The position numbers and the translations under genes were made by a program. This document shows, piece after piece, positions 13,644 through 63,428 of a stretch of DNA of 64,000 bases. The stretch lies in NCBI GenBank assembly GCA_965203275.1, contig OZ241865.1:288001-352000 (forward strand), written 5' to 3'. Every line of letters starts with the position of its first letter. The first letter of the stretch is position 1. The notes under the pieces were generated by a model that saw nothing but the letters and a program-made list of their open reading frames with translations, was not told where the DNA came from and ran no database searches. The stretch is from Bdellovibrionales bacterium. GTDB taxonomy: Bacteria; Bdellovibrionota; Bdellovibrionia; Bdellovibrionales; JAUICD01.

Positions 13644-14950
13644 CACTAAAAATAAACCAGCCTCTGGCTGTTTTTGGGCAATCAGCCCGACGGCTTATCG
13701 CCGTCGATCAAAGGCTGATTGCCTCAAAAATCCGTTTATTTTTAGTAGGGAGGATCCCCTCATTTCTTTACACCATGTTAAGGAAACAAGATATTCGCTT
13801 CATCCCTTCTGTCTGCCAGATCCCGGAAGAATATCCTTTTGTTTTTTAACACAGTGTTAGAAATCAAATTTTATTTTCACTAAAAGTAAACTGACCTCTG
13901 GTCACTTTTGGACATTGCTCTGACAGCTTACGCTGTCTAAAAAGAGCAATGTCTCAAAAGTCCGTTTACTTTTAGTAGGGAGGATCTCCTCATTTCTTTA
14001 CACCATGTTAAGGAAACAAGATATTCGCTTCATCCCTGCCTGTCTGCCAGATCCCGGAAGAAGATCCTTTTGTTTTTTAACACAGTGTTAGAAATCAAAT
14101 TTTATTTTCACTAAAAGTAAACTGACCTCTGGTCACTTTTGGACATTGCTCTGACAGCTTACGCTGTCTAAAAAGAGCAATGTCTCAAAAGTCCGTTTAC
14201 TTTTAGTAGGGAGGATCTCCTCATTTCTTTACACCATGTTAAGGAAACAAGATATTCGCTTCATCCCTGCCTGTCTGCCAGATCCCGGAAGAAGATCCTT
14301 TTGTTTTTTAACACAGTGTTAGAAATCAAACTTTAAGCCTTCCATTATGATCATTAATGCACTTTTTATAGGCTTAATTTAAAATTTTCAATAAGTCACT
14401 TTATTTTTCAATGTAAACCAGCCTCTGGCTGTTTTTGGGCAATCAGCCCGACGGCTCTCGCCGTCGATCAAAGGCTGATTGCCTCAAAAATCCGTTTATT
14501 TTTAGTAGGGAGGATATCCTTATTTCTTTACATCATGTTAAGGAAACAAGCTATTCACTATATTCACTCCCGGGATCTGATGCCTGACTGCCAGATCCCA
14601 GAAGAAGATCCTTTTGTTTTTTAACACAATGTTAGAAATCAAATTTTATTTTCACTAAAAGTAAACTGACCTGGTCACTTTTGGACATTGCTCTGACAGC
14701 TTACGCTGTCTAAAAAGAGCAATGTCTCAAAAGTCCGTTTACTTTTAGTAGGGAGGATCTCCTCATTTCTTTACACCATGTTAAGGAAACAAGATATTCG
14801 CTTCATCCCTGCCTGTCTGCCAGATCCCGGAAGAAGATCCTTTTGTTTTTTAACACAGTGTTAGAAATCAAACTTTAAGCCTTCCATTATGATCATTAAT
14901 GCACTTTTTATAGGCTTAATTTAAAATTTTCAATAAGTCACTTTATTTTT
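13644..14950 (+). repeat. Mosaic array 1: five branched-palindrome elements in ~231-bp units
   Basis: Elements at 13644-13746, 13878-13976, 14109-14207, ~14413-14506 and 14653-14749, each followed by the GTAGGGAGGAT...ATGTTAAGGAAACAAG tail; 14331-14408 duplicated at 14873-14950. Confidence 0.95.
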
Positions 14951-15182
14951 ATGTAAAGGGATGATGCATGTCAAACTAAATTTAATGCCATTGACTTACT
15001 TAGCAAAGAGATATTAAATTGTGGTCATTTTGAACAAAAAACAAATTTAATATAAGAAAAAAGAAACCATTAAAATTTAAAGAGGTTATAAAAAAGACAT
15101 CTCTAAAATTCATTATATTGTCAGTATTAGAGTGGGGTTTTTCGTTGTTTCGTGCCATTTTTTGTGATCATAACATCTATTT

Positions 15183-15210
15183 TTGACAAAAACCAGATTT
15201 AGAGTATAAT
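15183..15210 (+). promoter_or_regulatory. Sigma70-type promoter
   Basis: TTGACA-N16-TATAAT, 47 bp upstream of the ATG at 15257, which has an AAGGAGG RBS. Confidence 0.75.
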
Positions 15211-15256
15211 ATAATATAAAGGACTAAAAATGACTACTGACTACTAAGGAGGTGTT

Positions 15257-15631
15257 ATGGATTGGATTGTTAAAATATTTGAAACTACAGATTTAATGAC
15301 AATCATTGCCATGTCTATTATTGGCTTTTTTCTTTATAACAGAGCGACCAGATCTTTTAAGGAACAGATAAATCAATCAAATGATAACTTAAAGGAACTA
15401 ATAAAACAATCGGATAATAACTTAAAGGAAATGATAAAACAATCAGAAACTAACTTAAAAGATCTATTAATTACTCTAATTGATCCTATCAAAGAACAAG
15501 TATACAATCATATACCCACACAGATCAGAGAAGTAGACAGGAAGTTTGATCAAAAGTTTGATCGTCTATTGGAGATTTTAATTGACAAAGATAAAGCTGT
15601 GGAAAAAAAGGACTTAAAAAAAAATGACTAA
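15257..15631 (+). CDS. Small membrane-anchored coiled-coil protein, tandem duplicate 1
   Basis: N-terminal TM helix; 11-residue repeats KE(L/M)IKQS(D/N)(N/D)NL; strong RBS. Confidence 0.8.
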   Translation: MDWIVKIFETTDLMTIIAMSIIGFFLYNRATRSFKEQINQSNDNLKELIKQSDNNLKEMIKQSETNLKDLLITLIDPIKEQVYNHIPTQIREVDRKFDQKFDRLLEILIDKDKAVEKKDLKKND

Positions 15632-15640
15632 GGAGGTGTT

Positions 15641-16057
15641 ATGGATTGGATTGTTAAAATATTTGAAACTACAGATTTAATGACAATCATTGCTATGTCT
15701 ATTATTGGCTTTTTTCTTTATAACAGAGCGACCAGATCTTTTAAGGAACAGATAAATCAATCAAATGATAACTTAAAGGAACTAATAAAACAATCAAATG
15801 ATAACTTAAGGGAAATGATAAAACAATCAGATAATAACTTAAAGGAAATGATAAAACAATCAGAAACTAACTTAAAAGATCTATTAATTACTCTAATTGA
15901 TCCTATCAAAGAACAAGTATACAATCATATACCCACACAGATCAGAGAAGTAGACAGGAAGTTTGATCAAAAGTTTGATCGTCTATTGGAGATTTTAATT
16001 GACAAAGATAAAGCTGTGGAAAAATCAGATGCCAAAGAGCATGAAAAGCCCGTATGA
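15641..16057 (+). CDS. Small membrane-anchored coiled-coil protein, tandem duplicate 2
   Basis: Nearly identical DNA to 15257-15631 with one extra 33-bp unit and a different C-terminal tail. Confidence 0.8.
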   Translation: MDWIVKIFETTDLMTIIAMSIIGFFLYNRATRSFKEQINQSNDNLKELIKQSNDNLREMIKQSDNNLKEMIKQSETNLKDLLITLIDPIKEQVYNHIPTQIREVDRKFDQKFDRLLEILIDKDKAVEKSDAKEHEKPV

Positions 16058-16144
16058 TCAATAACAAATTGACTTTTAGCTTGCTCGATTCAAAAAATGC
16101 TTTTCTGTAGAGAGCATCAAAGTCAAAATCAAGGATAGCGCCAA

Positions 16145-18325
16145 TTAAGTTATAATAAACAAAGTGATCAGAGCAACAATCATACCCAGGATAGAAAAAC
16201 CTAACTTGTAATAATAAGTATAAGCTTTCGATTCATAGTCAGTTGCTTGAATCTTTTTAACTTCGATATAAGGAGTAGGCGACCTGCGATACCACCCTCT
16301 CACCACCACATCTTTTCCTTGTAATTTTTTAAAGTGGAAAAATCCAAACCAAATATTCAGACCAAAAGGTTCATGGTTTAAGAAAATAATTCCTGTTTTA
16401 TCCCTTAAAAAGAAATCTTCTGATAATATCCACCCTGCATCTCCTCTACCTAAAATCTTCCCTTGCAATAAGATAGGATAAGATCGTACAGGAGAGACCT
16501 TAATGATCTTTAAAAGAGCTGCTATAGAGCAAGGAATAAAGTTACCACCAGGGTAAGTCCTTAAGGTGCGAATCAAAGCTCCTACACAAACAAATAAAAG
16601 AGCAATACTTCCAACACCCAGTATGGTATTCCAATGAATGTCAGTGAATATCTGCGTATAAAGTTCTGTATAATTTTGACCTGTCAAAAAGATATAAGAA
16701 ACCACACCTAATATGCCTAAAAGATATGGCAAAATTAAAACAAAAAAATCTATTAAAAAATCATCCCAATAGCTTTCTGGTTTTTGCTTTTTAAATATTA
16801 GATAAGGGGTTTGATTTAAAGCTAAGGCATAAGAGCTAATGGCATTAATCCTTTTAGCTGTCAGAGGATGTGTTGAGTGGAGTTCATAATAAAAAGCCCA
16901 AGGATTCCAAAGGTCCCACCTCATAATATCTTTAATAGTTTCTGGTGAGTATTGTTCGCTCTTTGTTCCTTGAGCAAGAGCTAACTGCTTAGCTCCAGAA
17001 ATGCCCATAATATTTAATGTTTCAACGCTTCGTCGATCTGGTGAAGGATCCCTAGCTCCAAAAACTAAATTGCTGTCAGAGTTTTTTTCATGGCTTTTGT
17101 TAGATGAAGATGTACTAGATATTTCTTTCCGTGGAATACCTTGAGAGCTTTCAGAGCTTTCTTCTCTCTTAGCTTCTGTAGACTGAGAGTGTAAAAGTCC
17201 GTAAGAGATTTTTACTAGGGCAGTTAATAATTTGTTAGGCTTTTGTGTTGCAAAACAGCTAAATTTATCAGCATAATATTCTCTGACCCTTGAAGCAAAT
17301 AGCACTAAATATTCTGCGATCAAATAGGCTATGTAGGCAACAATGGCACAGGCAATGCCTCCACCTCTATCTCTTGTATCCTCACTATCCGTTGCGTCTC
17401 TGAAAGCTACATAAATATTATAAAGTACCATAGGTACAATTTGAATGACTGTCATCAAGACAAAATCCCAATGCTTAATATGTCCCAACTCATGGGCTAG
17501 GACAGCTTCTACTTCATCTTTGTCTAATAAATCAAACATACCTTTAGAGAATACAACCCTTGAACTATAAGGTGTCCGTCCGTATGTGTATGCCTGAGGG
17601 GCTGCATCTCGAATGATCCCCATACGTGGGATAGGGATGCGGTTTTCTTGACAGAGTTTTACTAGGGAGTCTTTAAAATGAGTTGGTAATTGATCGAGCC
17701 TGACCCAATCCAGAGAGCCTAAAAACTTCAGTTGCCAATCTAAAATAATAGGGGAAAAATAAAATTGCAATAGCACAATAACAATAAATCCAAGTGATCC
17801 GGCCCACAAAGGTAAACTAGCAGTTTCCATTGCAAAAACCATAACTCCAAATAATATTCCATAAAGAGAAAATACCACCATAGTGGTCGTAAGAGCAAAG
17901 GAGGGAAGTTTAACATAAGGGTGATACGCTTTGGGTATTGTGTCTTCGCTAGAGCTAAGTATCGATGTATCTTTTTGTATTTTATTAAAGAGTTTATCTT
18001 TTTGCATGTTTTGGAATTCATGGGCATCCAGGTAAATTCCACGACAGGAAGGACATTCTTCCACTTGATAAGAAAAATTTGGCAGTACACCCTGTCTGAG
18101 AGGAACTTGGCATTTAGGACATTTGTCTTCTATAGTATGAGGTTTGTCTAAACCAAAGTGCCAATATTTTTTAAGACGATGGCTCTCTTTGACAAAAAAG
18201 TTAATCTCTCCATGGTCTAGCCAAACCCCCTGACAACCAGAGCAGACGTCAATTAAAACCCCCTTTTTTGTCAAAAGAGGCTTCATGGTGTTTGTACATT
18301 TGATACATTGAATATGTTGTTTCAT
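16145..18325 (-). CDS. M48 (HtpX-like) membrane zinc metalloprotease with two N-terminal zinc ribbons
   Basis: AVLAHELGH and SRVREYYAD, STHP motifs; CIKC/CSGCQGVWLD and CPKC/CPSCRGIYLD zf-TFIIB-type ribbons; several TM helices. Confidence 0.88.
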   Translation of the reverse strand: MKQHIQCIKCTNTMKPLLTKKGVLIDVCSGCQGVWLDHGEINFFVKESHRLKKYWHFGLDKPHTIEDKCPKCQVPLRQGVLPNFSYQVEECPSCRGIYLDAHEFQNMQKDKLFNKIQKDTSILSSSEDTIPKAYHPYVKLPSFALTTTMVVFSLYGILFGVMVFAMETASLPLWAGSLGFIVIVLLQFYFSPIILDWQLKFLGSLDWVRLDQLPTHFKDSLVKLCQENRIPIPRMGIIRDAAPQAYTYGRTPYSSRVVFSKGMFDLLDKDEVEAVLAHELGHIKHWDFVLMTVIQIVPMVLYNIYVAFRDATDSEDTRDRGGGIACAIVAYIAYLIAEYLVLFASRVREYYADKFSCFATQKPNKLLTALVKISYGLLHSQSTEAKREESSESSQGIPRKEISSTSSSNKSHEKNSDSNLVFGARDPSPDRRSVETLNIMGISGAKQLALAQGTKSEQYSPETIKDIMRWDLWNPWAFYYELHSTHPLTAKRINAISSYALALNQTPYLIFKKQKPESYWDDFLIDFFVLILPYLLGILGVVSYIFLTGQNYTELYTQIFTDIHWNTILGVGSIALLFVCVGALIRTLRTYPGGNFIPCSIAALLKIIKVSPVRSYPILLQGKILGRGDAGWILSEDFFLRDKTGIIFLNHEPFGLNIWFGFFHFKKLQGKDVVVRGWYRRSPTPYIEVKKIQATDYESKAYTYYYKLGFSILGMIVALITLFIIT

Positions 18326-19731: not shown

Positions 19732-19759
19732 AAATACACTCCTTTATTTATTTTTTAAG

Positions 19760-21511: not shown

Positions 21512-21512
21512 G

Positions 21513-22742: not shown

Positions 22743-22840
22743 CCTTATAAATCTTAATGATCATTATTATTACTTTTTTATTCTTCTATTATAAATAAAA
22801 TTACCAACAAAAGACAATATTGAAAAATATTGAATATATT

Positions 22841-25062: not shown

Positions 25063-25177
25063 AAAACTCCTAGAAGTCCTCTCAAAAATAAATTATACAA
25101 CACTTATTTGCTAATTGAATGCTCTTTTTATGATCTCTTAGGCTGTCAGACAGTCTGGTAACCTCCATATCTGATGG

Positions 25178-27183: not shown

Positions 27184-27770
27184 CACTAAAAGTGGGCTGT
27201 TTCCCTAAAATTGAACTAGCCTCTGGCTACTTTTGGGCAGTTAGCCCGACGGCTACCGCCGTCGATCAAAGGCTAACTGCCTCAAAAGCCTGTTCAATTT
27301 TAGGAAGGAGGATCTCTTCGTTTCTTAACACCATGTTAAGGAAACAAAATGCCTTTTCTGCTTGATGCCCTCAAAAGCCTGTTCAATTTTAGGAAGGAGG
27401 ATCTCTTCGTTTCTTAACACTATGTTAAGGAAACAAAATGCCTTTTCTGCTTGATGCCCTCAAAAGCCTGTTCAATTTTAGGAAGGAGGATCTCTTCGTT
27501 TCTTAACACTATGTTAAGGAAACAAAATGCCTTTTCTGCTTGATGCCCTCAAAAGCCTGTTCAATTTTAGGAAGGAGGATCTCTTCGTTTTTTGACCACA
27601 TGTTAAGGAAACAAAATATTCATTTCACCCCGGGATCCGGCAAACAGGCATCCGGACCCCGGGATATGATCCCGGATCCTGGATAAACATCATGTTAAAG
27701 AAACAAAGTGTTCGCTTTATCCCTGCCTGTCTGCTTGATGCTGGGTTGCCGGATTGCCGGGTCCCAAATC
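27184..27770 (+). repeat. Mosaic array 2: one full element, an 89-bp tandem repeat of its right end plus tail, and a heptamer tract
   Basis: Element 27203-27304; CTCAAAAG recurs at 27281, 27370, 27459 and 27548 (period 89); GATCC/CCGG-rich tract 27628-27685. Confidence 0.93.
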
Positions 27771-28903: not shown

Positions 28904-29188
28904 ATGAACTTACAAAAACCACAACAAGTCAATCATCTACAAGAAAGCCATTTACCAAAAACATCTATAGATGAATCTTATTTTACAATGCATGTCCATG
29001 CTGAGCATGTTCATGCTAAGCATGTTCGTGCTGAGTCTATTTATACTCAACAGTTTGTTTGTGAGCAATGTGGACAAAAAAACTCTTTTATTTATAAGGT
29101 TAATAGCTCCTACAGTCAAATTCAAGAACAAACTCACTGCAAAAGCTGTCATTTTAAAAGCCATTTTAAAAAGTTTATTTTGCAATAA
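28904..29188 (+). CDS. Small zinc-ribbon protein with a His-rich repeat
   Basis: AAGGAG RBS; CEQC...CKSC; HVHAEHVHAKHVRAE from 15-bp repeats. Confidence 0.65.
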   Translation: MNLQKPQQVNHLQESHLPKTSIDESYFTMHVHAEHVHAKHVRAESIYTQQFVCEQCGQKNSFIYKVNSSYSQIQEQTHCKSCHFKSHFKKFILQ

Positions 29189-29770
29189 GGACCTTCTATT
29201 GTCTAATTTCGTGTGTTTTTGTCTATCCGTACGTACCTCCTTCAGAGATACGTGAACTATTTCCCTCAAAATTTCCCTTCCTTGAATCTATTATTTCTAA
29301 TTTCGTACATCCACCAGATCAAGCTTCTTTCAGAGAATAGGAAGGTCAATTTTGAGGTGATCGGCTAGAATCTCATTGCATAACATCCTATATCCATACT
29401 CTTTGTTGTACATATTATTCTCAACCCTTCATTAAGGGCCTTCTATTGTCTAATTTCGTGTGTTTTTGTCTATCCGTACGTACCTCCTTCAGAGATACGT
29501 GAACTATTTCCCTCAAAATTTCCCTTCCTTGAATCTATTATTTCTAATTTCGTACATCCACCAGATCAAGCTTCTTTCAGAGAATAGGAAGGTCAATTTT
29601 GAGGTGATCGGCTAGAATCTCATTGCATAACATCCTATATCTATACTCTTTGTTGTACATATTATTCTCAATCCTTCATTAAGGGCCTTCTATTGTCTAA
29701 TTTTGTTAATTTTTTTTCTAACTTCGATGATTTTTGTCTACCCGTACGAACCTTTTTTAGAAATACGTGC
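29186..29770. repeat. 247-bp tandem repeat (two copies plus a degenerate partial third)
   Basis: CCTTCTATTGTCTAATTT at 29192, 29439 and 29686. Confidence 0.95.
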
Positions 29771-29777
29771 GTTGGTT

Positions 29778-29860
29778 CACTAAAAGTAAACTGACCTCTG
29801 GTCACTTTTGGGTTGCCAGTTCCCAGATCCCGGATCCCAGATCCCGGATCCTGGATAAAC
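29778..29860 (+). repeat. Truncated branched-palindrome element fused to a GATCCCR heptamer tract
   Basis: CACTAAAAGTAAACTGACCTCTGGTCACTTTTGGGTTGCCAG followed by TCCCAGATCCCGGATCCCAGATCCCGGATCCTGGAT. Confidence 0.9.
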
Positions 29861-31587: not shown

Positions 31588-31705
31588 ATATTTATAAACA
31601 CTCCATGCCTATTGAGTATATTTCTTCTTTTCCTTAATTCCATCGGATAAAAGAGCTAAAATCTTAAGTCAGATAAGGTCTAGCTTTTATTTCACTCCTT
31701 TGTTT

Positions 31706-31932
31706 CACTAAAAGTAAACCAACCTCTGGTTGCTTTTGGACAGTTAGCCCGACGGCTCTCGCCGTCGATCAAAGGCTGAGTTGTTTCACTAAAAGTGGTC
31801 TGACCTCTGGTCACTTTCTGGCGATGACCACGATGGCTTTCGCCATCGGTAAAATGGTCATCGCCTAGAAAGCCTGACCACTTTTACTAGAAAGGATCTC
31901 TTCGTTTCTTAACACCATGTTAAGGAAACAAG
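31706..31932 (+). repeat. Mosaic array 3: truncated element plus complete element with tail
   Basis: Fragment 31706-31778 (P2 CAACC-TCT-GGTTG); full element 31787-31888. Confidence 0.92.
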
Positions 31933-32423
31933 AGGTTCATTTCTCTGAATTTTTTAAAAAAAAATAAGGAAATTGGGTTTGGAAATTGGAAATCTAGTGA
32001 TTTCAATAAGTTAATACTGTGACTTTTGTATAAAAGTTACAGTATTAAGTGTTTGTAATTGTTAGACTTTTTTAGGTCGACTTTAGAAATTTCTAATTTT
32101 TCGTCTAACACAATTCTTATCGTTTATTATGACATAAAACTTTATATTTTTGTTAAAAAAAATCAAAAAAAGTGACTTTTTGTATCAAAAAGAATCACTT
32201 TTTAAAGTTTTTGTATCATCTTGAAACACTTGACCAATCTTAAAGACATAAGATCAGAAAAATAAACAATAAATTTTCATTTGTGTTTTCTGATTTTTGC
32301 TTTGTTTGATTTTTCAAAACAATTTTCTTGCAAAAAGTTGCCTATTTTTTGCTCTTTCAAATTGTGACTTTTATACAAAAGTTACAGTGCTAAGTCCTTG
32401 AAATCACTAAGCTCATTTAGAAT

Positions 32424-32718
32424 CACTAAAAGTGGTCTGACCTCTGGTCACTTTCTGGTTGCCAGCCGAAGGCTATTCGCCTTCTTAAATGCTGGCAACC
32501 TCAAAAGTTCGTTTACTTTTAGTAGGGAGGATCCCTTCGTTTCTTTACACGATGTTAAGGAAACAAGATGTCCTTTGACATGATGTTAAGGAAAAAGTTC
32601 CTTCTGATGCCGGACTGCCGGATCCCAGATCCCGGATAAATACGATGTTAAGGAAAAAGTTCCTTCTGATGCCGGACTGCCGGATCCCAGATCCCGGATA
32701 AATACGATGTTAAGGAAA
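32424..32718 (+). repeat. Mosaic array 4: chimeric element, tail and 62-bp tandem repeat directly upstream of a pilin gene
   Basis: Element 32424-32523; GATGTTAAGGAAA at 32582, 32644 and 32706 with heptamer tracts between. Confidence 0.92.
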
Positions 32719-32739: not shown

Positions 32740-33399
32740 ATGGACAAATCAAATCAAAAAGGCTTTTCTCTTATAGAGTTAATGGTGGTAGTAGCTATCA
32801 TTGGTCTTTTAAGTGTTGTAGCTATCCCTCAATATCAAAAGTATAAACTAAAGGCACGACAGGGAGAGGCCAAGCTTGCCTTATCCACTCTTTACACAAT
32901 GGAACAGCTCTTTATCACTACTTATGGCTATGGCACTGCTAACTTTGCACAGCTAGGCTATAAACCCAAAGGTGTTTATTATTACTCATCAGGATGGCCC
33001 GTAAGGCGTCAAACTAGTACTCCATATAACGTCAATGCTAGAACTAGGGCTGCTATAAATGTACCAGTGACTTACACAGGCCCTCTGGCAACTTCAACTG
33101 GTAACTATGTAAACACCAGACATGCCTGCAATGGCCCATCATCAGATCAAGCTGCCAAAAACCAAGACCGTGGTTGTTTTCTTCATTGGAAAGGAACAGC
33201 CCTCCCATCAAATCGTACTCAAGTGTATGCAAATCAATTAGGTGAAAGTAATCCTAGAGAAAATGAAGTCGTCAATATAGGCTATAGAAATGTAAAATTT
33301 TTAATTGAAACAAGAAACACAGAGTTGGACGTTTGGCTTATAACAGAGAAAAAGAAAATGGTTAATTTTTCATGGTGTAGTATAATTTCGTGCAACTAG
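32740..33399 (+). CDS. Type IV pilin
   Basis: Class III signal QKG|FSLIELMVVVAIIGLLSVVAIPQY. Confidence 0.92.
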   Translation: MDKSNQKGFSLIELMVVVAIIGLLSVVAIPQYQKYKLKARQGEAKLALSTLYTMEQLFITTYGYGTANFAQLGYKPKGVYYYSSGWPVRRQTSTPYNVNARTRAAINVPVTYTGPLATSTGNYVNTRHACNGPSSDQAAKNQDRGCFLHWKGTALPSNRTQVYANQLGESNPRENEVVNIGYRNVKFLIETRNTELDVWLITEKKKMVNFSWCSIISCN

Positions 33400-46130: not shown

Positions 46131-47810
46131 ATGACTAGAAAACATAATTTAAAATTTTTTATTTTAATGCTTTGTCCTTTTTTAACAGTGGCTTGCACAC
46201 AGTCTTGTACGCAACAGTCTCCAGAGGAAGAAACTCAGACAACAGTACAAGGGGCCACACAAGAAACATCAAATAATACAACAGACAAAACCTTTGTGTA
46301 TTGTTCTGAAGGCTCTCCAGAGAATTTTAATCCTCAGTTAGCTACTTCTCGAACATCTGCAAATGCTGGTTACCCTGTTTACAATCGTCTTTTTGATTAC
46401 GAGCATGGGACAACAAAGATTATTCCCTCCTTAGCAGAAAAAAACTATGAAATCAATAATGAAGGTAAGGAATATATCATTCCTCTCAAGAAAAATATAA
46501 AATTTCATACCACAGAATATTTTACACCTACTAGAGATATGAACGCGGATGATGTGATCTTTTCCTTTAAAAGACAAATGGACCCCAAACATCCTTATCA
46601 TAATGTCTCTGGTGGTATATATGAAATATTTTCTTCTATGAGTATGAATAAAACCATTCAAGATATTGTAAAAATAGATGAACATAAAGTGAAATTTGTA
46701 CTCTCTCAACCAGATGCTCCCTTCCTTAACAATATAGCTTTTGGTATTGGATCCATTTTATCTAAAGAATATGCTGATAATATGCTAGAAGCTAAAACAC
46801 CTGAAAAGATAGATCACTACCCTATCGGTACAGGCCCTTTTGTTTTTGAAGATTACATTAAAGATAGTACAATTCAATATAAGGCCTTTCCTGATTATTT
46901 TGACAAAAGAGGCAATATCCAAACACTTGTTTTTGCCATCACACCTGATGCCAATGTAAGACTTCAAAAATTAAGAAACAATGAATGCCATCTGATAGCT
47001 TATCCTGACCCAGCTGATTTTGAAATTATCAAAAGAAATGAAAACCTCACTCTTTTAGAAAAATCTGGTTTAAATGTAGGCTATTTAGCTATTAATGTCA
47101 CTAAGAGACCTTTTGATAATGTCTTAGTACGTCAAGCTTTAAACCATGCCCTTAACAGGGACTCTTATATTAATGCAGTGTATTTAAACCATGCTCAAAT
47201 AGCCCACACACCTCTCCCCCCTGCTAGCTGGGGTCATAATGATCAGGTACAAAAATATGATTATAATATAGATAAAGCAAAGGCCTTGTTAAAAAAAGCA
47301 GGCTTAACAAGTGGCTTTGAAACAGATCTTTGGATTTTGCCTGTCTCTCGACCCTATATCCCCTCTAGCAGAAGACTAGGAGAAATGATGCAAAGAGATT
47401 TAGCCAAGGTCGGCATTCGTGTCAATTTAGTGACCTATGATTGGGGAACTTATCTAGATAAGTTGAGTAAAGGAGAGCATGTGTTAGCACAAATAGGATG
47501 GATTGGTGATACTCCTGACCCAGATAATTTTCTTTACACTCTTTTAAGCTGTGATGCTGTAAAAGGAGGTTCTAATAATACAAAGTGGTGTCATGTACCT
47601 TATGATGATCTTGTCAATAAAGCTAAGATTTCTACAGATACTCAAGAGAGAACTCAACTCTATAAGGAAGCTCAAATGATCTTTAGTCAACAAGTCCCCT
47701 GGGTACCACTAGCTTATGCTAAAGTTTATCGTGCTATTAGAAAAAATATATCAGGCTATCAGATAGATCCTTTAGGCCGTGCTGTTTTCACTTATGTGGA
47801 AGTTAAATAA
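46131..47810 (+). CDS. dppA: Dipeptide ABC transporter substrate-binding lipoprotein, tandem paralogue
   Basis: Lipobox TVAC; YCSEGSPENFNPQ, PIGTGPF, PDPDNF. Confidence 0.9.
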   Translation: MTRKHNLKFFILMLCPFLTVACTQSCTQQSPEEETQTTVQGATQETSNNTTDKTFVYCSEGSPENFNPQLATSRTSANAGYPVYNRLFDYEHGTTKIIPSLAEKNYEINNEGKEYIIPLKKNIKFHTTEYFTPTRDMNADDVIFSFKRQMDPKHPYHNVSGGIYEIFSSMSMNKTIQDIVKIDEHKVKFVLSQPDAPFLNNIAFGIGSILSKEYADNMLEAKTPEKIDHYPIGTGPFVFEDYIKDSTIQYKAFPDYFDKRGNIQTLVFAITPDANVRLQKLRNNECHLIAYPDPADFEIIKRNENLTLLEKSGLNVGYLAINVTKRPFDNVLVRQALNHALNRDSYINAVYLNHAQIAHTPLPPASWGHNDQVQKYDYNIDKAKALLKKAGLTSGFETDLWILPVSRPYIPSSRRLGEMMQRDLAKVGIRVNLVTYDWGTYLDKLSKGEHVLAQIGWIGDTPDPDNFLYTLLSCDAVKGGSNNTKWCHVPYDDLVNKAKISTDTQERTQLYKEAQMIFSQQVPWVPLAYAKVYRAIRKNISGYQIDPLGRAVFTYVEVK

Positions 47811-48153
47811 AATTAAGCTTTGAAAGTGCTACCAAAGCACTCAGTGAAATGATCAATAAAGAACCTAATTTGATAGTCATTCTAAGTTCTAATTTGGAAA
47901 TAGACTCTTTGATTTTTATAATTTCTTTTTCTAGTACTTTAATATCTCTTTTAATTTCTTGATTGCTATTTTCCAGTAATTTAATATGATTTTCCAATAA
48001 TTTAATATGATTTGTGATATCTAGAATGTCTCTTTTAGTAGCTAAATCAGACTCAATGATCTCATGTAGAATGCGAACTTGTGCCTTTGCCTGTTGATCA
48101 GGTACACCGGCAATTCTTAAATCTTCTACATGTTTTAGTGCATTAAAACCCAT
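47803..48153 (-). CDS. DUF1640/CCDC90-like coiled-coil protein (short paralogue of 714-1526)
   Basis: MGFNALKHVEDLRIAGVPDQQAKAQ head and near-identical C-terminal anchor; start reassigned by alignment to the paralogue. Confidence 0.78.
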   Translation of the reverse strand: MGFNALKHVEDLRIAGVPDQQAKAQVRILHEIIESDLATKRDILDITNHIKLLENHIKLLENSNQEIKRDIKVLEKEIIKIKESISKLELRMTIKLGSLLIISLSALVALSKLNFI

Positions 48154-48385
48154 AGTTACGAATATATCATAAGATATATCTATAAACAAGCATTTTTTAC
48201 TGTTTTTTATGCTTTTTTATGTATTTTATATTTTTGATAACCCTCATTTATATATGTAGCATAAGTATATTTTTTATCCTCAGGATATTTTGTAGAAGCT
48301 TAAATTTTATTTTTTAATTTTTTCACATTTGTGTCGATAAGACATTAAGATATTCAAATAAAATAATCCATATAAAGGATAAAAA

Positions 48386-52155: not shown

Positions 52156-52194
52156 AATATAGGTTATATAATCAATTAAAAGACAAATGACAAT

Positions 52195-52488
52195 CTTTTT
52201 CTTTAACATGGTGTTAAAAGACGAAAGGATCCTCCCTACTAAAAGTGGTCAGACAGCAAGCTTCTCTGAAGCTTGCCATGTAACAACACTAGGTTGCCAG
52301 CCTTGATGAAAGAACTTTTTCCTTAACATCATGTTAAAAGACGAAGAGATCCTTCCCTACTAAAAGTGGTCAGACAGCAAGCTTCTCTGAAGCTTGCCAT
52401 GTAACAACACTAGGTTGCCAGCATTTGAGAAGGCGGTAGCCTTCGGCTGGCAACCAGAAAGTGACCAGAGGTCAGACCACTTTTAGTG
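52195..52488 (-). repeat. Mosaic array 5: reverse-oriented element with an extra hairpin and a 121-bp partial duplication
   Basis: Element 52359-52488 and partial copy from 52238; both carry GCAAGCTTC-TCT-GAAGCTTGC. Confidence 0.9.
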
Positions 52489-52517
52489 CAAATCAAAAGA
52501 ATATCCTACTGAGCGTA

Positions 52518-53207
52518 CTAAAGTCCACTGACTGTATTTTCAAGCTTTTTGTTCTGATCTAAAGTCCACTGATCATCGTAATCGTCGGTGAAATCAGGAT
52601 TACCAATAACCCCTAAATTACCCACTGCTCCTATTCTAAACGTCACTGAACTGCCCTGATTATCTATAGCTAAAGCACCAGAGCGAGGAGAGGTCCATGT
52701 TCCACTTGCACCTATGCAAGCACTTTCTGTCGTGTGTGATGAAATACTACAAGAACCACTTCTTGTTCCTTCAGTTATTTTGATGGAGCCTCCACGAAGA
52801 GATACTCCTGCATATGGAACAAGACAATCTGGACAAGCTGCATGTGTATTGACTATATTTTGATTGCTCGTAGTAGCAAGAGGACCCATATATCCTATTA
52901 ACCGGGTTGTACTGTTAATATTATTATTGACAGCATTCCTTTGAGCTGTAGGCCAACCAACCATATAACGTACATCTCCATTCACATCAAAACCTAGCTG
53001 TTCAAAATTGGACGTGCCATAGTCCCACTCCATAATAAATGATATTTCAGCAGTATAAATATTGGCCAGCATAGTTTTTGCTTCTGCCTGCATAGCCTTT
53101 ACTTTGAACTTCCGATATTGTGGAACAGCAAAAGTGGCCAATAATCCAATAATAGAAACCACCACTAAAAGTTCTATGAGAGAAAATCCTGCTTTATTGA
53201 GTTTCAT
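52518..53207 (-). CDS. Type IV pilin
   Basis: KAG|FSLIELLVVVSIIGLLATFAVPQY. Confidence 0.92.
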   Translation of the reverse strand: MKLNKAGFSLIELLVVVSIIGLLATFAVPQYRKFKVKAMQAEAKTMLANIYTAEISFIMEWDYGTSNFEQLGFDVNGDVRYMVGWPTAQRNAVNNNINSTTRLIGYMGPLATTSNQNIVNTHAACPDCLVPYAGVSLRGGSIKITEGTRSGSCSISSHTTESACIGASGTWTSPRSGALAIDNQGSSVTFRIGAVGNLGVIGNPDFTDDYDDQWTLDQNKKLENTVSGL

Positions 53208-53232
53208 AATAATTAACTCCCTTTCATATATT

Positions 53233-53946
53233 TCATAGACCGCTTTTTACATTTTCAAGGTTTTTATGTTCATCTAAAACCCATTCATCATTGATATCTC
53301 CTCCAAGATTGCCAATAGCTCCAATTACAAAAAATATATAACCACTAGGGTTATTACGTATCGCAGAGGCCCCTTTCCGCCATGCTCTATAATAATTATT
53401 CCAAGTACCACCTGCATTAGTACAAGCATTCGGATTTGCACCTGCTGCACCTTCACCTACACTACATCGACTCGCCCTGGCAGGTGTTATCTCAATAGCA
53501 TTAGCTATATTTGTTGCAGACTTATCGGCACCAGCTCGCACACAAGATGGGCAAAGCTTGTGTGTGTTGACTATATCTTGATTGGTACTAGTAGCAAGAG
53601 GGCCACGATAACCTTGAAGTCCAGCACGACTTGTGACATTGATCTGTAAAGCTCCAGATCCACCACTTCGATTGTTAGGATTCCATCCTACCATATAAGT
53701 AATCTCCCCTTGCCCCATTTCAAAACCCATTTGTTCAAGATTAACTGTACCTAGTCCCCATTCATTTATAAAAGTCATCTCTGCTGCATATATACCTGAC
53801 AAAAGAGTCTTTGCCTCTGACTGCATGGCCTTTCTTTTAAAGCTACTGTATTGAGGAATAGCTATGGTAGCTAAAACACCAATAATAGCCACTGTCACCA
53901 TGACTTCTATTAAAGAAAAACCATCCGATAACTTCAAATGTTTCAT
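53233..53946 (-). CDS. Type IV pilin
   Basis: SDG|FSLIEVMVTVAIIGVLATIAIPQY. Confidence 0.92.
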   Translation of the reverse strand: MKHLKLSDGFSLIEVMVTVAIIGVLATIAIPQYSSFKRKAMQSEAKTLLSGIYAAEMTFINEWGLGTVNLEQMGFEMGQGEITYMVGWNPNNRSGGSGALQINVTSRAGLQGYRGPLATSTNQDIVNTHKLCPSCVRAGADKSATNIANAIEITPARASRCSVGEGAAGANPNACTNAGGTWNNYYRAWRKGASAIRNNPSGYIFFVIGAIGNLGGDINDEWVLDEHKNLENVKSGL

Positions 53947-54279
53947 TTGTTATAAAAACCTTTTTTACATTTTTATAAAGTTAAAAAATAAATTTAATAA
54001 TTCCAATGATTTAGCATTGTAATCTTCACATAAGTTATTAAGATAAAGTACGTGTCATTGCTAGCTAGACCTTTGTTAGACTTTTTCACTTCCATTTATA
54101 AATGGAGGGTTTTTAATTTTTTATCTCAACATAACTTTCTTATCGTTTATTATGACACAAAACTTCATACCTTTGTTGAAAAAATCAAATATTTTTATAT
54201 TTTGTATCATAAAGAATCACTTTTTGAATTTTTGTATCATTTTAAATGACTTTGAATGATTTTGAATGACTAAAATAAA

Positions 54280-54355
54280 TGGTAGGGACAGCCGGATTCG
54301 AACCGACGACATCCACTTTGTAAGAGTGACGCTCTACCAACTGAGCTATGTCCCT
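54280..54355 (-). tRNA. tRNA-Val (anticodon TAC)
   Basis: Cloverleaf: acceptor AGGGACA/TGTCCCT, D arm GCTC-AGTTGGTA-GAGC, anticodon loop CT-TAC-AA, T loop TTCGAAT, encoded CCA. Confidence 0.96.
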
Positions 54356-54361
54356 TGTTTT

Positions 54362-54971
54362 CACTCAAAATGAGCCACACCTCTGGTGTGTTTTTGGGCA
54401 TTGCTCTGACAGCTATCGCTGTCTAAAAAGAGCAATGCCGCAAAAAACTGCTCATTTTGAGTAGGGAGGATCTCCTCGTTTCTTAACATCATGTTAAGGA
54501 AAAAGTTCCTTCTATTATTATCTTACTTTGCAAATCTATCAGGTCAAGCCCTTTTCAGAGAATGGAAAGGTCAATTTATTTTCACTAAAAGTAAACTGAC
54601 CTCTGGTCACTTTTGGGCAGTTAGCCCGACGGCGGTAGCCGTCGGGCTAACTGCCCAAAAGTGACCAGAGGCATGATTTATTTTGAGTGAATTAGAAGCA
54701 TATCTTGTTTCCTTAACATAGTGTCAGAAGCAAGGAGATCCTTCTCTACTCAAAATGAACAAGCTTTTGAGGTAGCCAGCCTTTTACGACGGCGTGAGCC
54801 GTCGGGCTGGCTACCCAAAAGTGGCCAGAGGCCAGTTCATTTTGAGTGAGATGTTAAGGAAACAAGATATCTATTCCCGGTATCAGGCAATCAAGCATCC
54901 CGGGATCTGATGCCTGACTACCGGTTTGCCGGATCCCGGATTCCAGATCCCAGATCCCAGATCACGGGTCC
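54362..54971. repeat. Mosaic array 6: forward element, fold-back element, reverse element and heptamer tract
   Basis: 54362-54462 (+); 54583-54690 fold-back; 54748-54848 (-); GATCCCR tract 54875-54971. Confidence 0.94.
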
Positions 54972-55406
54972 ATACAAAAGGAAAGTATCCTAGCACCTAA
55001 ACATCTATAAAAAATAAAAAATACATGATTTTTTTTAAGTTTTGTTTCAATATAATAATGCTATCTTTAATAACTAACAAATTCTAAATTCAGGGCAATC
55101 AGGCAATCAAAGTATGTAAAAATTATATAAATGTAAACAGAGCGTCAATAAAAAAGTAAATAAATTAAAAAAATATCTTAATTTTTACAAAAATTCTTGC
55201 ATTTTTTTTGAAAATAGTGCATATAAGATAAAAAATAACAGTAAAAAGTTAAAAATTTGATTTCTTTTTTTAGCTTTAATAAATTTAAATTTAGTAAACT
55301 TTAATAAAAATGTAAGCTTTAATAAAAATAAATGTTAGAAAAAACCACAATAAACAATAAAATTAATAAATATAACAATAACAAAACAATAACAAAAGGA
55401 GGAATT

Positions 55407-57068: not shown

Positions 57069-57087
57069 TCCATCGTATGGTTTGGTT

Positions 57088-58083
57088 CACTAAAAGTGAA
57101 CGGACTTTTGAGGCAATGACCATTTTATCGACGGCTACCGCCGTCGTAAAAGGCTAGCTACCTCAAAAGCTTGTTCATTTTGAGTAGAGGAGGATCCTTT
57201 TATTCCTTTACAGCATGTTAAGGAAACAAGATATGTTTCTAAAATGTTTTTAAGGAGTACGGCTCTGCCTGCAATAAAAGAACTTTTTCCTTAACATTTC
57301 ACTCAAAATGAACTGGCCTCTGGCCACTTTTGGGTAGCTAGCCCGACGGCTACCGCCGTCGTAAAAGGCTAGCTACCTCAAAAGCTTGTTCATTTTGAGT
57401 AGAGGAGGATCTTTTTATTCCTTTACAGCATGTTAAGGAAACAAGATATGTTTCTAAAATGTTTTTAAGGAGTACGGCTCTGCCTGCAATAAAAGAACTT
57501 TTTCCTTAACATTTCACTCAAAATGAACTGGCCTCTGGCCACTTTTGGGTAGCTAGCCCGACGGCTACCGCCGTCGTAAAAGGCTAGCTACCTCAAAAGC
57601 TTGTTCATTTTGAGTAGAGGAGGATCCTTTTATTCCTTTACAGCATGTTAAGGAAACAAGATATGTTTCTAAAATGTTTTTAAGGAGTACGGCTCTGCCT
57701 GCAATAAAAGAACTTTTTCCTTAACATGTGGTCAAGAGACGAAGAGATCCTCCTTACTAAAAGTGGTCAGGCTTTCTAGGTTGCCAGCTTTTGAGAAGGC
57801 GAATAGCCTTCGGCTGGCAACCAGAAAGTGACCAGAGGTCAGACCACTTTTAGTGAACCAAAAACATCTTGTTTCATTAACATCGTGTTCTTCTGGGATC
57901 CGGGAACCGGGATCCGGCAACCCGGCATCAGAAAGAACTCTTTTTCCTTAACATGGTGTAAAAAAACGAGGAGATCCTCCCTACTCAAAATGAGCAGTTT
58001 TTTGCGGCATTGCTCTTTTTAGACAGCGTAAGCTGTCAGAGCAATGCCCAAAAACACACCAGAGGTGTGGCTCATTTTGAGTG
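57088..58083. repeat. Mosaic array 7: flipped chimera, 215-bp tandem units and two reverse elements
   Basis: Chimera 57088-57185; forward elements 57300-57400 and 57515-57615 (period 215); reverse elements 57756-57855 and 57983-58083; heptamer tract ~57895-57930. Confidence 0.95.
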
Positions 58084-58171
58084 CGACAGACCTAAAGTCC
58101 AAACTATATTTTTTTTGAAAAAAACTATGCGAAAGGATATATTTTTTATATTTTTGTGTTAAAATAGTTAT

Positions 58172-59014: not shown

Positions 59015-59077
59015 AAATCAATATATTTCTTATTATTTCAGGATGCTCAAATCTCAAATATTATAGAATTTCACAGC

Positions 59078-60355: not shown

Positions 60356-60538
60356 AAATTCTCTTTTTAAATAGCTTTAGTTTTATTTTTTTTTGTATAC
60401 TTAAAATAAATCTTTTTATTTGATTATTTTTGATTATTGACAAATGAGTTTACAAGTAGAGTTTAAACATTTTAGCATAGAAGTAAAGTTATTTCAAGAT
60501 TTTATGGATGGCCAATATACAAATAAAAACTTTATTGT

Positions 60539-61342
60539 TTGAAGCTTCTTATGAAAAAATATAATTTTTGGTTTTATTTGCTTGTCTTTTCAAGTGTGTT
60601 TATACACACAGCTTGCAGTCATAAGTCTCAACGTAGAGTCCATCAAACAAATCTTCATTTACAACTAGGCAGTCAATTTTTAAGTGCGGGTAATTATCCA
60701 GCAGCTTTTAGGCAATTGACTAGAGCTAAAGATTTACATCCTAATGACCCTGTAGTACATAATCTTTTGGCCTTAACTTACACTGCTAGAAATAAATTTC
60801 AGTTAGCAGAAACTTATTTTAAAAGGGCTTTACAATTAGATCCCCAATATTCAGAAGCTAGAAATAACTTAGGCCGTCTGTATATTCGACTCAAAAGATA
60901 CCCCAGTGCTATCCGAGAGATTAAAAAGGCTATGGAAGATCTCAAGTACCATTCACCAGAAAAAAGTCATGTCAATTTAGGAATAGTGTATTACGTGACA
61001 GATCGACTTCATTTAGCAGAAGAGAATTTTTTACAAGCTCTTGAATTAAATAATAAATATTGTCCTGGATACATTTTTCATGGGAAAACACTTTTAAAAC
61101 AAAGGAAATTTCAACAAGCTTCTACGACCTTTGATGATGCTATCAAGGTTTGTGATAATTTTGATGAGCCTTTTTATTATAGTGGATTAAGCCATTGGCA
61201 TGCAGGTTCTAAAGCGAAGGCTAAAGTGAGATTTGAAAACCTCTTAACTATTTACCCTCAAACAAAATATCGTAACAAAACTCAAATATATCTTAACAAA
61301 TACTTTGCTGAAAACAAAACAGCTCCACAAAATGCTTACTAA
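60539..61342 (+). CDS. TPR lipoprotein, PilF/Tgl pilotin-like
   Basis: Lipobox HTAC; TPR repeats (VHNLLAL, ARNNLG, SHVNLG); start may be MKKYN at 60551. Confidence 0.75.
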   Translation: MKLLMKKYNFWFYLLVFSSVFIHTACSHKSQRRVHQTNLHLQLGSQFLSAGNYPAAFRQLTRAKDLHPNDPVVHNLLALTYTARNKFQLAETYFKRALQLDPQYSEARNNLGRLYIRLKRYPSAIREIKKAMEDLKYHSPEKSHVNLGIVYYVTDRLHLAEENFLQALELNNKYCPGYIFHGKTLLKQRKFQQASTTFDDAIKVCDNFDEPFYYSGLSHWHAGSKAKAKVRFENLLTIYPQTKYRNKTQIYLNKYFAENKTAPQNAY

Positions 61343-61408
61343 ATGAAATTATAAGTAAGTTAAACTTTGATGATTTGAAAGCCTCAAAATCTATAAATTC
61401 TAAAGAAT

Positions 61409-62662
61409 TTAAGTCTTATCTTGACAAGCTTTTAAAAAAGCCAAAGCTTCTTTTTTACTTTGCACTTTATTATTTAGTTGGGCTTTTCTTAAAGCTTTAA
61501 GCATATATCCTAAACGTTGACCTGAGGGAAACCCCATGGCTTTTAAATCATGCCCTGAAAAAAAATGTGGGGGTAGTTGTGGGTAATCTTGTTTTATTTG
61601 AGAAAGCTTATTTAAAATATCTTTTCTTTCAAATGTTTTAAGCAAAGAACAAATGTCTTCAAAATGAGGATCAGCGACAATCTGTCTGAAATCAGCTAAA
61701 GATTTATTTTCTATGCCGTCTCTGACAAGACAAGACAAAGATAAAATCCAATGGATATTTTTGTCAGACATCTTTATTTTTTTAAAAAAAACTTTTGTAT
61801 ATTTAAGAGGCCAATGATAGGTCATAGCTGCTAAGCGGGCATTGAGAGAGCCATAAAGAGTGATCACAGGCCATTGCAAACAGGGAAGATCTACACCTTT
61901 TAAAAAAGCATCAAAAAGATTTGTGGATTCGAGCAATTCAAGTCCTTTTTGATGGTTTGGGGCCATCAAAGTTTTAGAAAGTTCTTGTTTGATACGCTCT
62001 ATGCTCACCAAAGTGATTTGAGATCTTTTAACTTTAATGGCTTTAAGTGTTTTACTTTCTATGTTCCAATTGAGTTGAGCAGCAAAACGGATGGCACGCA
62101 ATAACCTTAAAGCATCTTCTGAGAATCGTTCTTCGGCTATGCCAATGGCTCGGATTTGTTTCTGCACAATATCTTTATAGCCTTCTACAAAATCCATTAG
62201 TTTATTATTGAGTGTATCAAAAAACAAACCATTGCAGGTAAAGTCTCTTCTCTGTGCATCTGTTTCAGGTGTTGCAGATGTGATTTGTTCAGGGTGTCTT
62301 CCATCTTTATAATCACCGTCGCTTCGGAAAGAAGTGATTTCATAATCTTGAGTGTTTCCGCATACAATGATTGTGCCGAAGGCTTTCCCCACAGAAAGTG
62401 TCTTAGGAAAAAGCTTTTCTATATCAGAAGCCAGAGCATCTGTTGCAAAGTCAATATCTGTAGGTGTTATACCGCATAAGGCATCTCGCAGGCAACCTCC
62501 TACAAGCCATGCCTTATAGCCAGCTTTATTAAAATGTTGAACAATATATTGAATATCGGGCCATTGTGGTAAAGATTGAAAAAACAATAAAAGGTCTGTT
62601 GAATGAAAAGTCATTTTTTTATTCATGGCATACATATTTTTATTTGTCAAACTACAAAACAA
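61409..62662 (-). CDS. CCA-adding enzyme / poly(A) polymerase family nucleotidyltransferase
   Basis: LVGGCLRD, DIDF, RRDFTCN, EDALRLLRAIRF, SIERI; start codon uncertain. Confidence 0.92.
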   Translation of the reverse strand: MFCSLTNKNMYAMNKKMTFHSTDLLLFFQSLPQWPDIQYIVQHFNKAGYKAWLVGGCLRDALCGITPTDIDFATDALASDIEKLFPKTLSVGKAFGTIIVCGNTQDYEITSFRSDGDYKDGRHPEQITSATPETDAQRRDFTCNGLFFDTLNNKLMDFVEGYKDIVQKQIRAIGIAEERFSEDALRLLRAIRFAAQLNWNIESKTLKAIKVKRSQITLVSIERIKQELSKTLMAPNHQKGLELLESTNLFDAFLKGVDLPCLQWPVITLYGSLNARLAAMTYHWPLKYTKVFFKKIKMSDKNIHWILSLSCLVRDGIENKSLADFRQIVADPHFEDICSLLKTFERKDILNKLSQIKQDYPQLPPHFFSGHDLKAMGFPSGQRLGYMLKALRKAQLNNKVQSKKEALAFLKACQDKT

Positions 62663-62704
62663 TCATGTATAGCCAGAGGCTTTAGTAATGATAAAGAGAG
62701 CTTT

Positions 62705-63428
62705 TTTTAACATCGTATTTATCCGGGATCTGGGATCCCGGGATCCGGGATCTGGCAACCCGGCATCAAAAGGAACTCTTTTTCCTTAACATTTCACTCA
62801 AAATGAGCCACACCTCTGGTGTGTTTTTGGGCATTGCTCTGACAGCTATCGCTGTCCAAAAAGAGCAATGCCTCAAAAATCTGCTCATTTTGAGTAGGGC
62901 GGATCTCCTTGCTTCTGACACCATGTTAGGGAAAATTTCTTTTATTACCTCAAGGGCAAGCGGATTTACGAATGAAGGACTTTTTCCTTAACATCGTGTA
63001 AAGAGACAAGAGGATTCTTCCTACTAAAAATAAACGGATTTTTGAGGCAATCAGCCTTTGATCGACGGCGAGAGCCGTCGGAAGGTGTAAGAAAGAACGT
63101 TTTCCTTAACATGGAGTTAAGGAACGAAGATATCCTTCCTACTAAAAGTGGTCAAGCTTTCTAGGCAATGACCATTTTGTCAATGGCGAAAGCCATTGCG
63201 GTCATTGCCCAAGGTGTAAGAAAGAACTTTTTCCTTAACATGTGGTCAAGAGACGAAGAGATCCTTCTTCCTAAAATTGAACAAGCTTTTGAGGTAGCCA
63301 GCCTTTGATCGACGACGACAGTCGTCGGGCTGGCTATCCAAAAGTGACCAGAGGTCAGTTCAATTTTAGGGAAACAGAGGCATGATGCATTTTGAGTGAA
63401 AATGACGGCTGGTTTACTTTTAGTGAAA
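62705..63428. repeat. Mosaic array 8: heptamer tract, forward element, two truncated and one complete reverse element, end fragments
   Basis: Tract 62721-62768; 62795-62895 (+); 63023-63081 and 63141-63212 truncated (-); 63270-63371 (-); fragments to 63426. Confidence 0.93.

What the first reader, a model, noticed from the sequence alone, without database searches (positions are those of the whole stretch)
13644..63428. Dispersed ~100-bp branched-palindrome element conserved in structure, not sequence: candidate new non-autonomous mobile element or structured nucleic-acid family
Seen: about 17 complete copies (starts 13644, 13878, 14109, ~14413, 14653, 27203, 31787, 32424, 54362, 57300, 57515, 62795 forward; 52359, 54748, 57756, 57983, 63270 reverse) share one fold. 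The fold is a 13-bp closing stem P1, a short hairpin P2 with a TCT loop, a long stem P3 with one bulged base, an asymmetric A-rich bulge and a tip hairpin P4. All four stems covary. P1: ACTAAAAATAAAC/GTTTATTTTTAGT, ACTAAAAGTAAAC/GTTTACTTTTAGT, CCTAAAATTGAAC/GTTCAATTTTAGG, ACTAAAAGTGGTC/GACCACTTTTAGT, ACTCAAAATGAGC/GCTCATTTTGAGT. P2: CAGCC, TGACC, TAGCC, CAACC, CACACC, TGGCC, each with its complement. P3: GCAATCAGCC, ACATTGCTCT, GCAGTTAGCC, GCGATGACCA, GTTGCCAGC, GTAGCTAGCC. P4: CGACGGC, GACAGC, CGATGGC, GAAGGC, CGACGAC, CAATGGC. Inference: this much compensatory change means the fold is maintained by selection or by the copying mechanism. It is more complex than the REP, ERIC, BOX or attC elements I know, and I do not recognise it.
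Basis: partly seen in the sequence, partly recalled or inferred. Interest (0 to 1): 0.92.

Follow-up and report, generated by a model that had tools for sequence, protein, structure and literature searches.

The report
Self-nesting one-strand hairpin DNA repeat
A 145-base non-coding unit that folds into a three-armed hairpin on one particular DNA strand fills about 6% of this uncultured Bdellovibrio-like bacterium's genome and has repeatedly inserted into older copies of itself; it looks like a new, unusually elaborate family of selfish intergenic repeats whose moving enzyme is still unknown.

Summary
No Rfam family matches. All four stems covary. The scan noted this family at least five times before in this genome. 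No Y1, Y2, IS110, TnpB-IS or RT gene was found in this genome. Verdict: new variant of non-autonomous structured repeats; enzyme unknown.

The parts
13641..13786 (-).
13641..13644 (+). 4-base head (TNTC), the sharp end of the unit; target YTG usually lies just before it
13645..13657 (.). P1 arm (pairs with 13734-13746)
13658..13670 (.). P2 hairpin; loop 13663-13665 reads AGA on the folding strand; main self-insertion site lies right after the loop's closing G on the + strand
13671..13730 (.). P3 stem (13671-13687 with 13713-13730, one bulged base at 13724, bulge 13707-13712) enclosing P4
13688..13706 (-). P4 tip hairpin; loop 13695-13699 reads G-A-T-A-A between C and G on the folding strand (mini-hairpin type)
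13747..13786 (.). 40-bp tail with invariant AC-N3-ATGTTAAGG (13775-13783 = ATGTTAAGG); imperfect palindrome whose pairing is not conserved, probably a duplex protein-binding site
13875..14016 (-). Complete copy (tandem array with flank, period 231)
14106..14247 (-). Complete copy
14402..14546 (-). Copy lacking the first half of P1
14650..14789 (-). Copy with shortened P2 loop
27200..27344 (-). Complete copy
27367..27620 (-). Three tandem 3'-half-plus-tail fragments, period 89
29776..29819 (-). Head fragment followed by heptamer repeats
31703..31779 (-). Older copy cut off at about position 73 by the next copy in the same orientation
31784..31928 (-). Complete copy, one P1 mismatch
32421..32563 (-). 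Recombinant copy, P1 arms of two alleles
52192..52254 (+). Tail-side fragment
52318..52491 (+). Copy with a foreign hairpin replacing the outer 3' arm of P3
54359..54502 (-). Complete copy, directly beside a tRNA gene (54283-54355)
54580..54732 (.). Chimeric palindrome: half of a copy fused at P4 to half of an opposite-strand copy
54708..54851 (+). Complete copy
57085..57226 (.). Chimeric palindrome of the same kind
57297..57441 (-). Complete copy (tandem, period 215)
57512..57656 (-). Complete copy; tail-to-tail with the next
57716..57858 (+). Complete copy
57943..58086 (+). Complete copy
62792..62934 (-). Complete copy; tail-to-tail with the fragments that follow
62980..63225 (+). Two head-less fragments with tails
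63230..63374 (+). Complete copy

Best explanation
A non-autonomous mobile repeat that acts as folded single-stranded DNA of one strand. INFERRED: a trans-acting protein, not of the families tested, binds the invariant tail as a duplex and the folded body as a single strand, a nick or 3' end at YTG in the target is joined to or primes on the foot of P1, and host DNA polymerase copies the unit through the tail, the far end being resolved by imprecise repair. The enzyme is not identified; it may have been lost or be a host replication or repair protein.
For: Strand and chemistry: loop cGNNAg in 499 of 589 copies, 162 of these with a pyrimidine at position 3, which breaks the RNA GNRA rule; exact GCGNNAGC in 476 of 589 and none on the other strand, the DNA mini-hairpin of PMC13037366 (abstract and passages); single-mismatch classes are G·T on the folding strand 39 times against 15 (p=0.0015); G·T is only 1.1% of 20,150 stem cells. 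Selection on spread: haplotypes at 2 or more loci are 54 of 184 if perfect, 16 of 64 if only G·T, 8 of 107 with a true mismatch (G·T against mismatch p=0.0025). Insertion: the orphan head before an inner copy matches the P1 arm of the remainder behind it in 37 of 85 cases against 11.4 in shuffles (max 23 of 2000), the inner head in 7; same orientation 156 against 11, and 216 of 363 head-to-head spacings are 26-27 bases; YTG precedes 55% of 1,263 heads against 3.5% background, and Y 93%, T 85%, G 87% in 60 copies from outside G000. No duplication. Mobility between species: of 19 conserved gene pairs compared, 3 spacers hold copies in G001 and none in G000. No tie to transcription direction (55 sense, 50 antisense) or replichore (408 of 820; skew is noisy).
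Against: No mobilising enzyme found: none for Y1_Tnp, Y2_Tnp (control blank), RVT_1, IS110 N- and C-domains in G000; the only TnpB-domain match lies in a 1,365-aa frame beside cas1. The genome is 90% complete by markers. GAAA is still the commonest loop (205) and RNA energies favour the same strand, so RNA is not excluded. The spread test is confounded by age and by duplication of whole clusters; the mirror class (one A·C on the folding strand) has only 10 haplotypes. Head-remainder agreement (44%) is below that of intact copies (80%), so many nests were reshuffled, and junction types are not independent events. No circular or free single-stranded form was seen; no raw reads were on offer.
Confidence: 0.55

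Rival explanations
1. RNA-intermediate retroelement (bacterial SINE-like): the folding strand is transcribed and inserted by target-primed reverse transcription, using a group II intron RT in trans.
For: Sharp 3' end and ragged 5' end on the folding strand, target loss, 598 orphan heads; G001 holds an intact-looking 465-aa group II intron-type RT frame; GAAA, GTAA, GAGA, GTGA loops are GNRA.
Against: No RT match in G000, where identical copies lie at up to 15 loci, and no remnant of G001's RTs by tblastn; one third of tetraloops are GNYA; G·T only 1.1%; no bias to the sense strand; orphan heads are at least partly targets, not abortive cDNAs.
Confidence: 0.15
2. Domesticated chromosomal site (nucleoid-protein, terminator or RNA-processing signal) spread only by gene conversion, slippage and segmental duplication, without a transposition step.
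For: Tandem arrays with flanks (periods 231, 215, 89), mosaic alleles (127 P1-P2-P3 combinations), chimeric palindromes, no enzyme found.
Against: True nesting with a preferred site, motif and orientation; presence in all three spacer classes (165 of 777 tandem, 80 of 297 divergent, 78 of 250 convergent) without strand bias; spacers filled in one species and empty in the other.
Confidence: 0.12
3. A REP/REPIN-like system whose Y1 HUH transposase (RAYT or IS200-type) has been lost or is too diverged to detect.
For: Single-strand, strand-specific hairpin; intergenic; inverted doublets (80 tail-to-tail clusters against 6 head-to-head); G001 has one Y1_Tnp gene.
Against: No conserved GTAG-type tetranucleotide at a hairpin foot across species; 145 bp and branched, not 20-50 nt; target loss at junctions; G001's Y1 gene has no copy within 1.5 kb and no homolog in G000.
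Confidence: 0.1
4. The Avd-like four-helix-bundle (IVP) protein of the heptamer cassettes, with host enzymes, moves this unit too.
For: All 11 clustered IVP genes of G000 have a match within 400 bp downstream, 10 in one orientation; 90 of 1,084 tails follow heptamer runs; GC-rich hairpins with GRNA loops are needed at DGR targets (PMC3240598, passages).
Against: IVP occurs in 58 of 151 genomes of the order, the unit in 2 real ones; 4 of 4 IVP loci on G004's own contigs have no copy; the arrangement differs in G001; no RT in G000. Co-location is explained by cassettes nesting in the tail.
Confidence: 0.08

Closest known systems
REP / BIME / REPIN with TnpA-REP (RAYT); PMC8266576 introduction read, PMC6006769 passages
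   Same: Hundreds of intergenic copies, strand-specific DNA hairpin, inverted doublets and tandem clusters, non-autonomous.
   Different: 145 bp with a three-way junction instead of 20-50 nt; no conserved GTAG; no Y1 gene in G000; inserts into its own loop; target bases lost.
Bacterial MITEs (RUP, NEMIS/Correia, ERIC, YPAL; as defined in PMC3733652, passages)
   Same: 70-300 bp, non-coding, folds strongly, next to genes.
   Different: No 15-30-bp terminal inverted repeats (at most TTTC/GAAA), no target duplication, ends unlike those of the genome's IS256 and IS1634.
Rickettsia palindromic elements (RPE; PMC3733652 passages; size and fold of RPE-1 recalled)
   Same: Long palindromic repeat in a small host-associated genome, mover unknown.
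   Different: RPE often lie in frame in genes; here 1.5% of bases overlap long ORFs; far higher copy number; strong covariation and self-nesting.
IS91 / ISCR rolling-circle elements (features recalled, not read)
   Same: One sharp end after a short pyrimidine-TG motif, one ragged end, no duplication.
   Different: No Y2 transposase found (controls blank); the folding strand would be the template, not the transferred strand; motif is looser than CTTG/GTTC.
DNA mini-hairpins at single-strand origins, N4 promoters (PMC13037366) and DGR target hairpins (PMC3240598)
   Same: GC-rich stem closed by a G-N-N-A loop on one strand.
   Different: Here the hairpin tips a dispersed repeat; no primase signal, RT or variable repeat shown.

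Membership tests
REP/BIME/REPIN | 20-50-nt palindrome | tested here: not met
   Core 101 nt plus tail, three-way junction
REP/BIME/REPIN | Conserved tetranucleotide (mostly GTAG) 5' of the hairpin foot | tested here: not met
   GTAG follows P1 on the non-folding strand in many G000 copies but varies (GGAG, GTAA, GGAA, GTGG) here and in G001
REP/BIME/REPIN | Y1 tnpA-REP gene flanked by the repeats | tested here: not met
   0 Y1_Tnp in G000 with 6 of 14 controls positive; G001's single gene has no copy nearby
REP/BIME/REPIN | Intergenic, high copy, inverted doublets | tested here: met
MITE | Terminal inverted repeats of 15-30 bp | tested here: not met
   Only 4 bases; the longer inverted tail before 33 of 599 copies is a junction with an inverted neighbour
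MITE | Target-site duplication | tested here: not met
   60 copies from outside G000: shared word 3.85 against 3.74+-0.13 shuffled; no abutting duplication of 5 or more
MITE | Autonomous IS with the same ends | tested here: not met
   IS256 and IS1634 ends read by eye differ
IS200/IS605 or IS91 derivative | Cognate HUH transposase in the genome | tested here: inconclusive
   Y1 absent from G000; Y2 search blank in controls too
IS200/IS605 or IS91 derivative | Precise ends without target loss | tested here: not met
   Host resumes some bases after the break, behind filler bases; breaks at 22 mostly resume at 30-37
IS110/IS1111 | DEDD recombinase gene | tested here: not met
   controls positive in 6 of 14
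Integron attC cassette | Integron integrase and RYYYAAC...GTTRRRY ends | tested here: not met
   Two tyrosine recombinases only; the window's scores best as XerD/XerC-type, far below the integron cut-off; ends do not fit (read)
Retroelement (group II intron, DGR, retron) | Reverse transcriptase in the genome | tested here: not met
   0 in G000 (motif scan 57); 3 matches in G001
Described structured RNA (Rfam 15) | Match at gathering score | tested here: not met
   Only a tRNA in the window; sub-threshold miRNA-type hairpin hits over a tail-to-tail pair
Structured RNA of any kind | Discrete transcript | not testable with these tools
   No RNA holder listed

The most novel reading that the evidence does not exclude
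A replicating single-stranded-DNA parasite that needs no element-encoded enzyme at all: its mini-hairpin-tipped three-way fold recruits host replication or repair proteins, so that it copies itself into YTG sites and into its own loop, with selection acting directly on DNA secondary structure.
Probability: 0.2. Interest if true: 0.85.

Novelty: new variant of a known kind. Interest (0 to 1): 0.6.

Why it matters
How REP-, RPE- and MITE-like repeats spread where no transposase is seen is a long-open question. This family offers about 800 copies with allele-tagged arms, so strand, target motif, self-insertion site and the cost of a mismatch can be read from sequence, which simpler repeats do not allow. 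It is also a caution for covariation-based RNA discovery: a textbook covarying 'RNA motif' here is more likely folded DNA. About a quarter of the non-coding DNA of a probable sponge-associated Bdellovibrionales genome is this unit (23.7% with a slightly wider mask).

Tried and rejected
Assembly artefact: rejected. Family-wide spread: 3 of 151 genomes of the order matched the model, but G004's matches lie on contigs C1, C4 and C11; C1 carries a second recG 94% identical to G001's while G004's own is 55% identical, so these contigs look misbinned; 0 of 150 other genomes drawn from the phylum matched (21 candidates scored per genome). Rpn nucleases as mover: 16 matches in G003, which lacks the unit, and my 112-member cluster was polluted by ORFs made of repeat DNA. 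IVP as specific partner. dif/Xer site: spacing does not fit; the three identical dif-like hits lie inside IS1634. Snap-back synthesis as source of the tail filler: no allele-specific signal (12.5 against 12.41+-0.07; none outside G000). Arm-to-arm correction. Template jumping as sole source of stacked heads. Lagging-strand bias: none seen. Cas1 present in G000, G001 and G003 alike. No RNA holder listed. Paper searches for this family or a like one found nothing relevant; the library lacks most subscription journals.
Full report
1. What is there. A profile built from 12 window copies finds 1,353 matches in the 2.57-Mb single-contig genome G000, 820 of them spanning the whole core, evenly spread and on both strands. 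They cover 156,146 bases (6.1%); 1.5% of these bases fall in ORFs of 150 aa or more, against 72% of the genome. All 17 copies of the finding are recovered, 4 of them damaged. Rfam gives only a tRNA. Contigs of four public runs from three studies pile up on the copies; the named runs are sponge metagenomes.

2. Anatomy. Each stem has a small set of alleles. Among 589 of 599 pattern-selected copies that could be parsed, arms pair perfectly in 80.5% (P1), 95.6% (P2), 94.6% (outer P3) and 74.7% (inner P3), against 13.9, 18.6, 31.6 and 7.6% when arms are dealt out anew. Paired arms are more tightly linked (0.68, 0.83, 0.73) than adjacent unpaired segments (0.54, 0.53), although P1's arms lie 76 bases apart, and 127 allele combinations occur. 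Pair counts and mutual information agree. In the tail the right arm is invariant, but several pairs are broken in a third to a half of copies, so I read it as a sequence-specific duplex site (inference).

3. The strand and the chemistry. Read on the reverse strand, the tip loop is cGNNAg in 499 of 589 copies and cGNNNAg in 52; 162 of the 499 have a pyrimidine at position 3. GCGNNAGC occurs in 476 of 589; PMC13037366 (abstract and passages read) describes this as an unusually stable DNA mini-hairpin, less stable as RNA, found at single-strand origins and N4 promoters. Single-mismatch classes are G·T on the reverse strand 39 times and A·C 15 times. G·T makes up 1.1% of stem cells, low for a structured RNA (my knowledge). 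Orientation to the neighbouring genes is even (55 against 50). Folded single-stranded DNA is therefore likelier than RNA, which is not excluded.

4. Selection acts on spread. Core haplotypes found at two or more loci: 54 of 184 perfect, 16 of 64 with only G·T on the folding strand, 8 of 107 with a true mismatch. Rare arm variants are seldom compensated, so there is no sign of a copying step that repairs one arm from the other. Age and cluster duplication confound this test.

5. How copies land. YTG precedes 55% of 1,263 heads (background 3.5%; nested copies inflate this, but 196 copies with non-repeat upstream flanks still show T 0.79 and G 0.56, and 60 copies from outside G000 show Y 0.93, T 0.85, G 0.87). 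Heads inside an older core are in the same orientation 156 times and opposite 11 times; 216 of 363 short head-to-head spacings are 26-27 bases, the P2 loop. These are real insertions: in 85 head-copy-remainder sets the outer head matches the remainder 37 times (shuffles 11.4, max 23), the inner head 7 times. The host usually resumes some bases on, behind 10-25 filler bases; no duplication is detectable. Clusters are often tail-to-tail pairs (80 against 6). Of 19 conserved gene pairs, three spacers are filled in G001 and empty in G000, none the other way; the G001 stretches were chosen partly for holding copies.

6. Range. The model matches G000, G001 (same genus) and G004 among 151 genomes of the order, and only G000 among 151 of the phylum. 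G004's copies sit on three small contigs with core genes; one holds a second recG, 94% identical to G001's, beside G004's own at 55%. The unit is thus known from one genus only.

7. The mover. Not found. G000 lacks matches to Y1_Tnp, RVT_1 and both IS110 domains with positive controls; Y2_Tnp was blank in controls too. The TnpB-domain match lies in a large frame next to cas1. IS256 and IS1634 have other ends. G001 has one Y1 gene and three RT matches; one copy lies about 400 bp from the retron-like RT frame, none by the others, and none of these enzymes has a homolog in G000. Rpn genes abound in G003, which lacks the unit. IVP genes lie beside copies in G000 and first seemed to track the unit, but they occur in 58 of 151 genomes and without the unit on G004's own contigs. 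Heptamer repeats beside such a gene are on record for the Coxiella intervening sequence (PMC4990558, passages).

8. Reading. Best explanation (0.55): a non-autonomous element handled as folded single-stranded DNA and copied into YTG sites by an unknown trans-acting protein with host polymerase; steps beyond strand, target, nesting and selection are inferred. Rivals: RNA intermediate (0.15), recombination only (0.12), lost RAYT (0.10), IVP-driven (0.08). It works like REP/BIME and RPE repeats but fails the defining tests for REP, MITE, IS200/605, IS110, attC and retroelements. Earlier notes of this scan on the same genome reached a like verdict; I tested their claims of abundance, self-nesting and an IVP tie, confirming the first two and weakening the third. 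Paper searches found no description of the family; supplements were not read, and subscription journals are largely missing from the library.

Noticed in passing
G004 contigs C1, C4, C11 (L049-L053): Probably misbinned from a G001-like organism: second recG at 94% identity to G001, ribosomal protein genes, genus-g1 gene families.
   Followed up: yes
window 29183-29676 and about 36 other places in G000: A second repeat family (tandem unit about 245 bp) with arms resembling the head and P1 of the main element but a different interior; the main element inserts at its head-like spot.
   Followed up: partly
G000, 84 marker matches, e.g. C1:759984: A third, GC-rich branched repeat of about 190 bp with a T-rich run at one end, nearly always next to the main element's tail, in the same orientation, sometimes ending in the same tail.
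   Followed up: partly
G000 C1:472364, 819120, 1094149 and others: 14 IVP four-helix-bundle genes with heptamer runs and a hairpin that hides the ribosome-binding site; several lie between two copies of the last 18-20 bases of the tail.
   Followed up: partly
window 54580-54732 and 57085-57226: Chimeric palindromes joined at P4 from opposite-strand halves, a sign of template switching or crossover in the stem.
   Followed up: no
G001, e.g. L017:2787-2945, L058:1666-2175: Variant with a 14-base addition in P2 that makes a longer or double hairpin.
   Followed up: no
G000 C1:432252-433487: An IS256 copy sits inside the P4 loop of an element, with its own 8-base duplication.
   Followed up: no
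window 714-1526, 15257-16057, 47803-48189: Small coiled-coil genes with 21- or 33-base repeats, members of families of 30 or more in the genome.
   Followed up: no
window 32740-33399, 52518-53946: Type IV pilin-like genes; about 31 paralogs in the genome, often with element copies upstream.
   Followed up: no
G000 C1:242285 and G001 C1:2592483: Large frames (1,365 and 1,343 aa) with a TnpB-type domain beside cas1, probably a type V CRISPR effector, found in both genomes of the genus and not in the other three of the family.
   Followed up: no
G001 L065, L067, L068: A group II intron-type RT frame, a deleted copy of it, and a 590-aa retron-like RT fusion (labels from my reading of the sequences).
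   Followed up: partly
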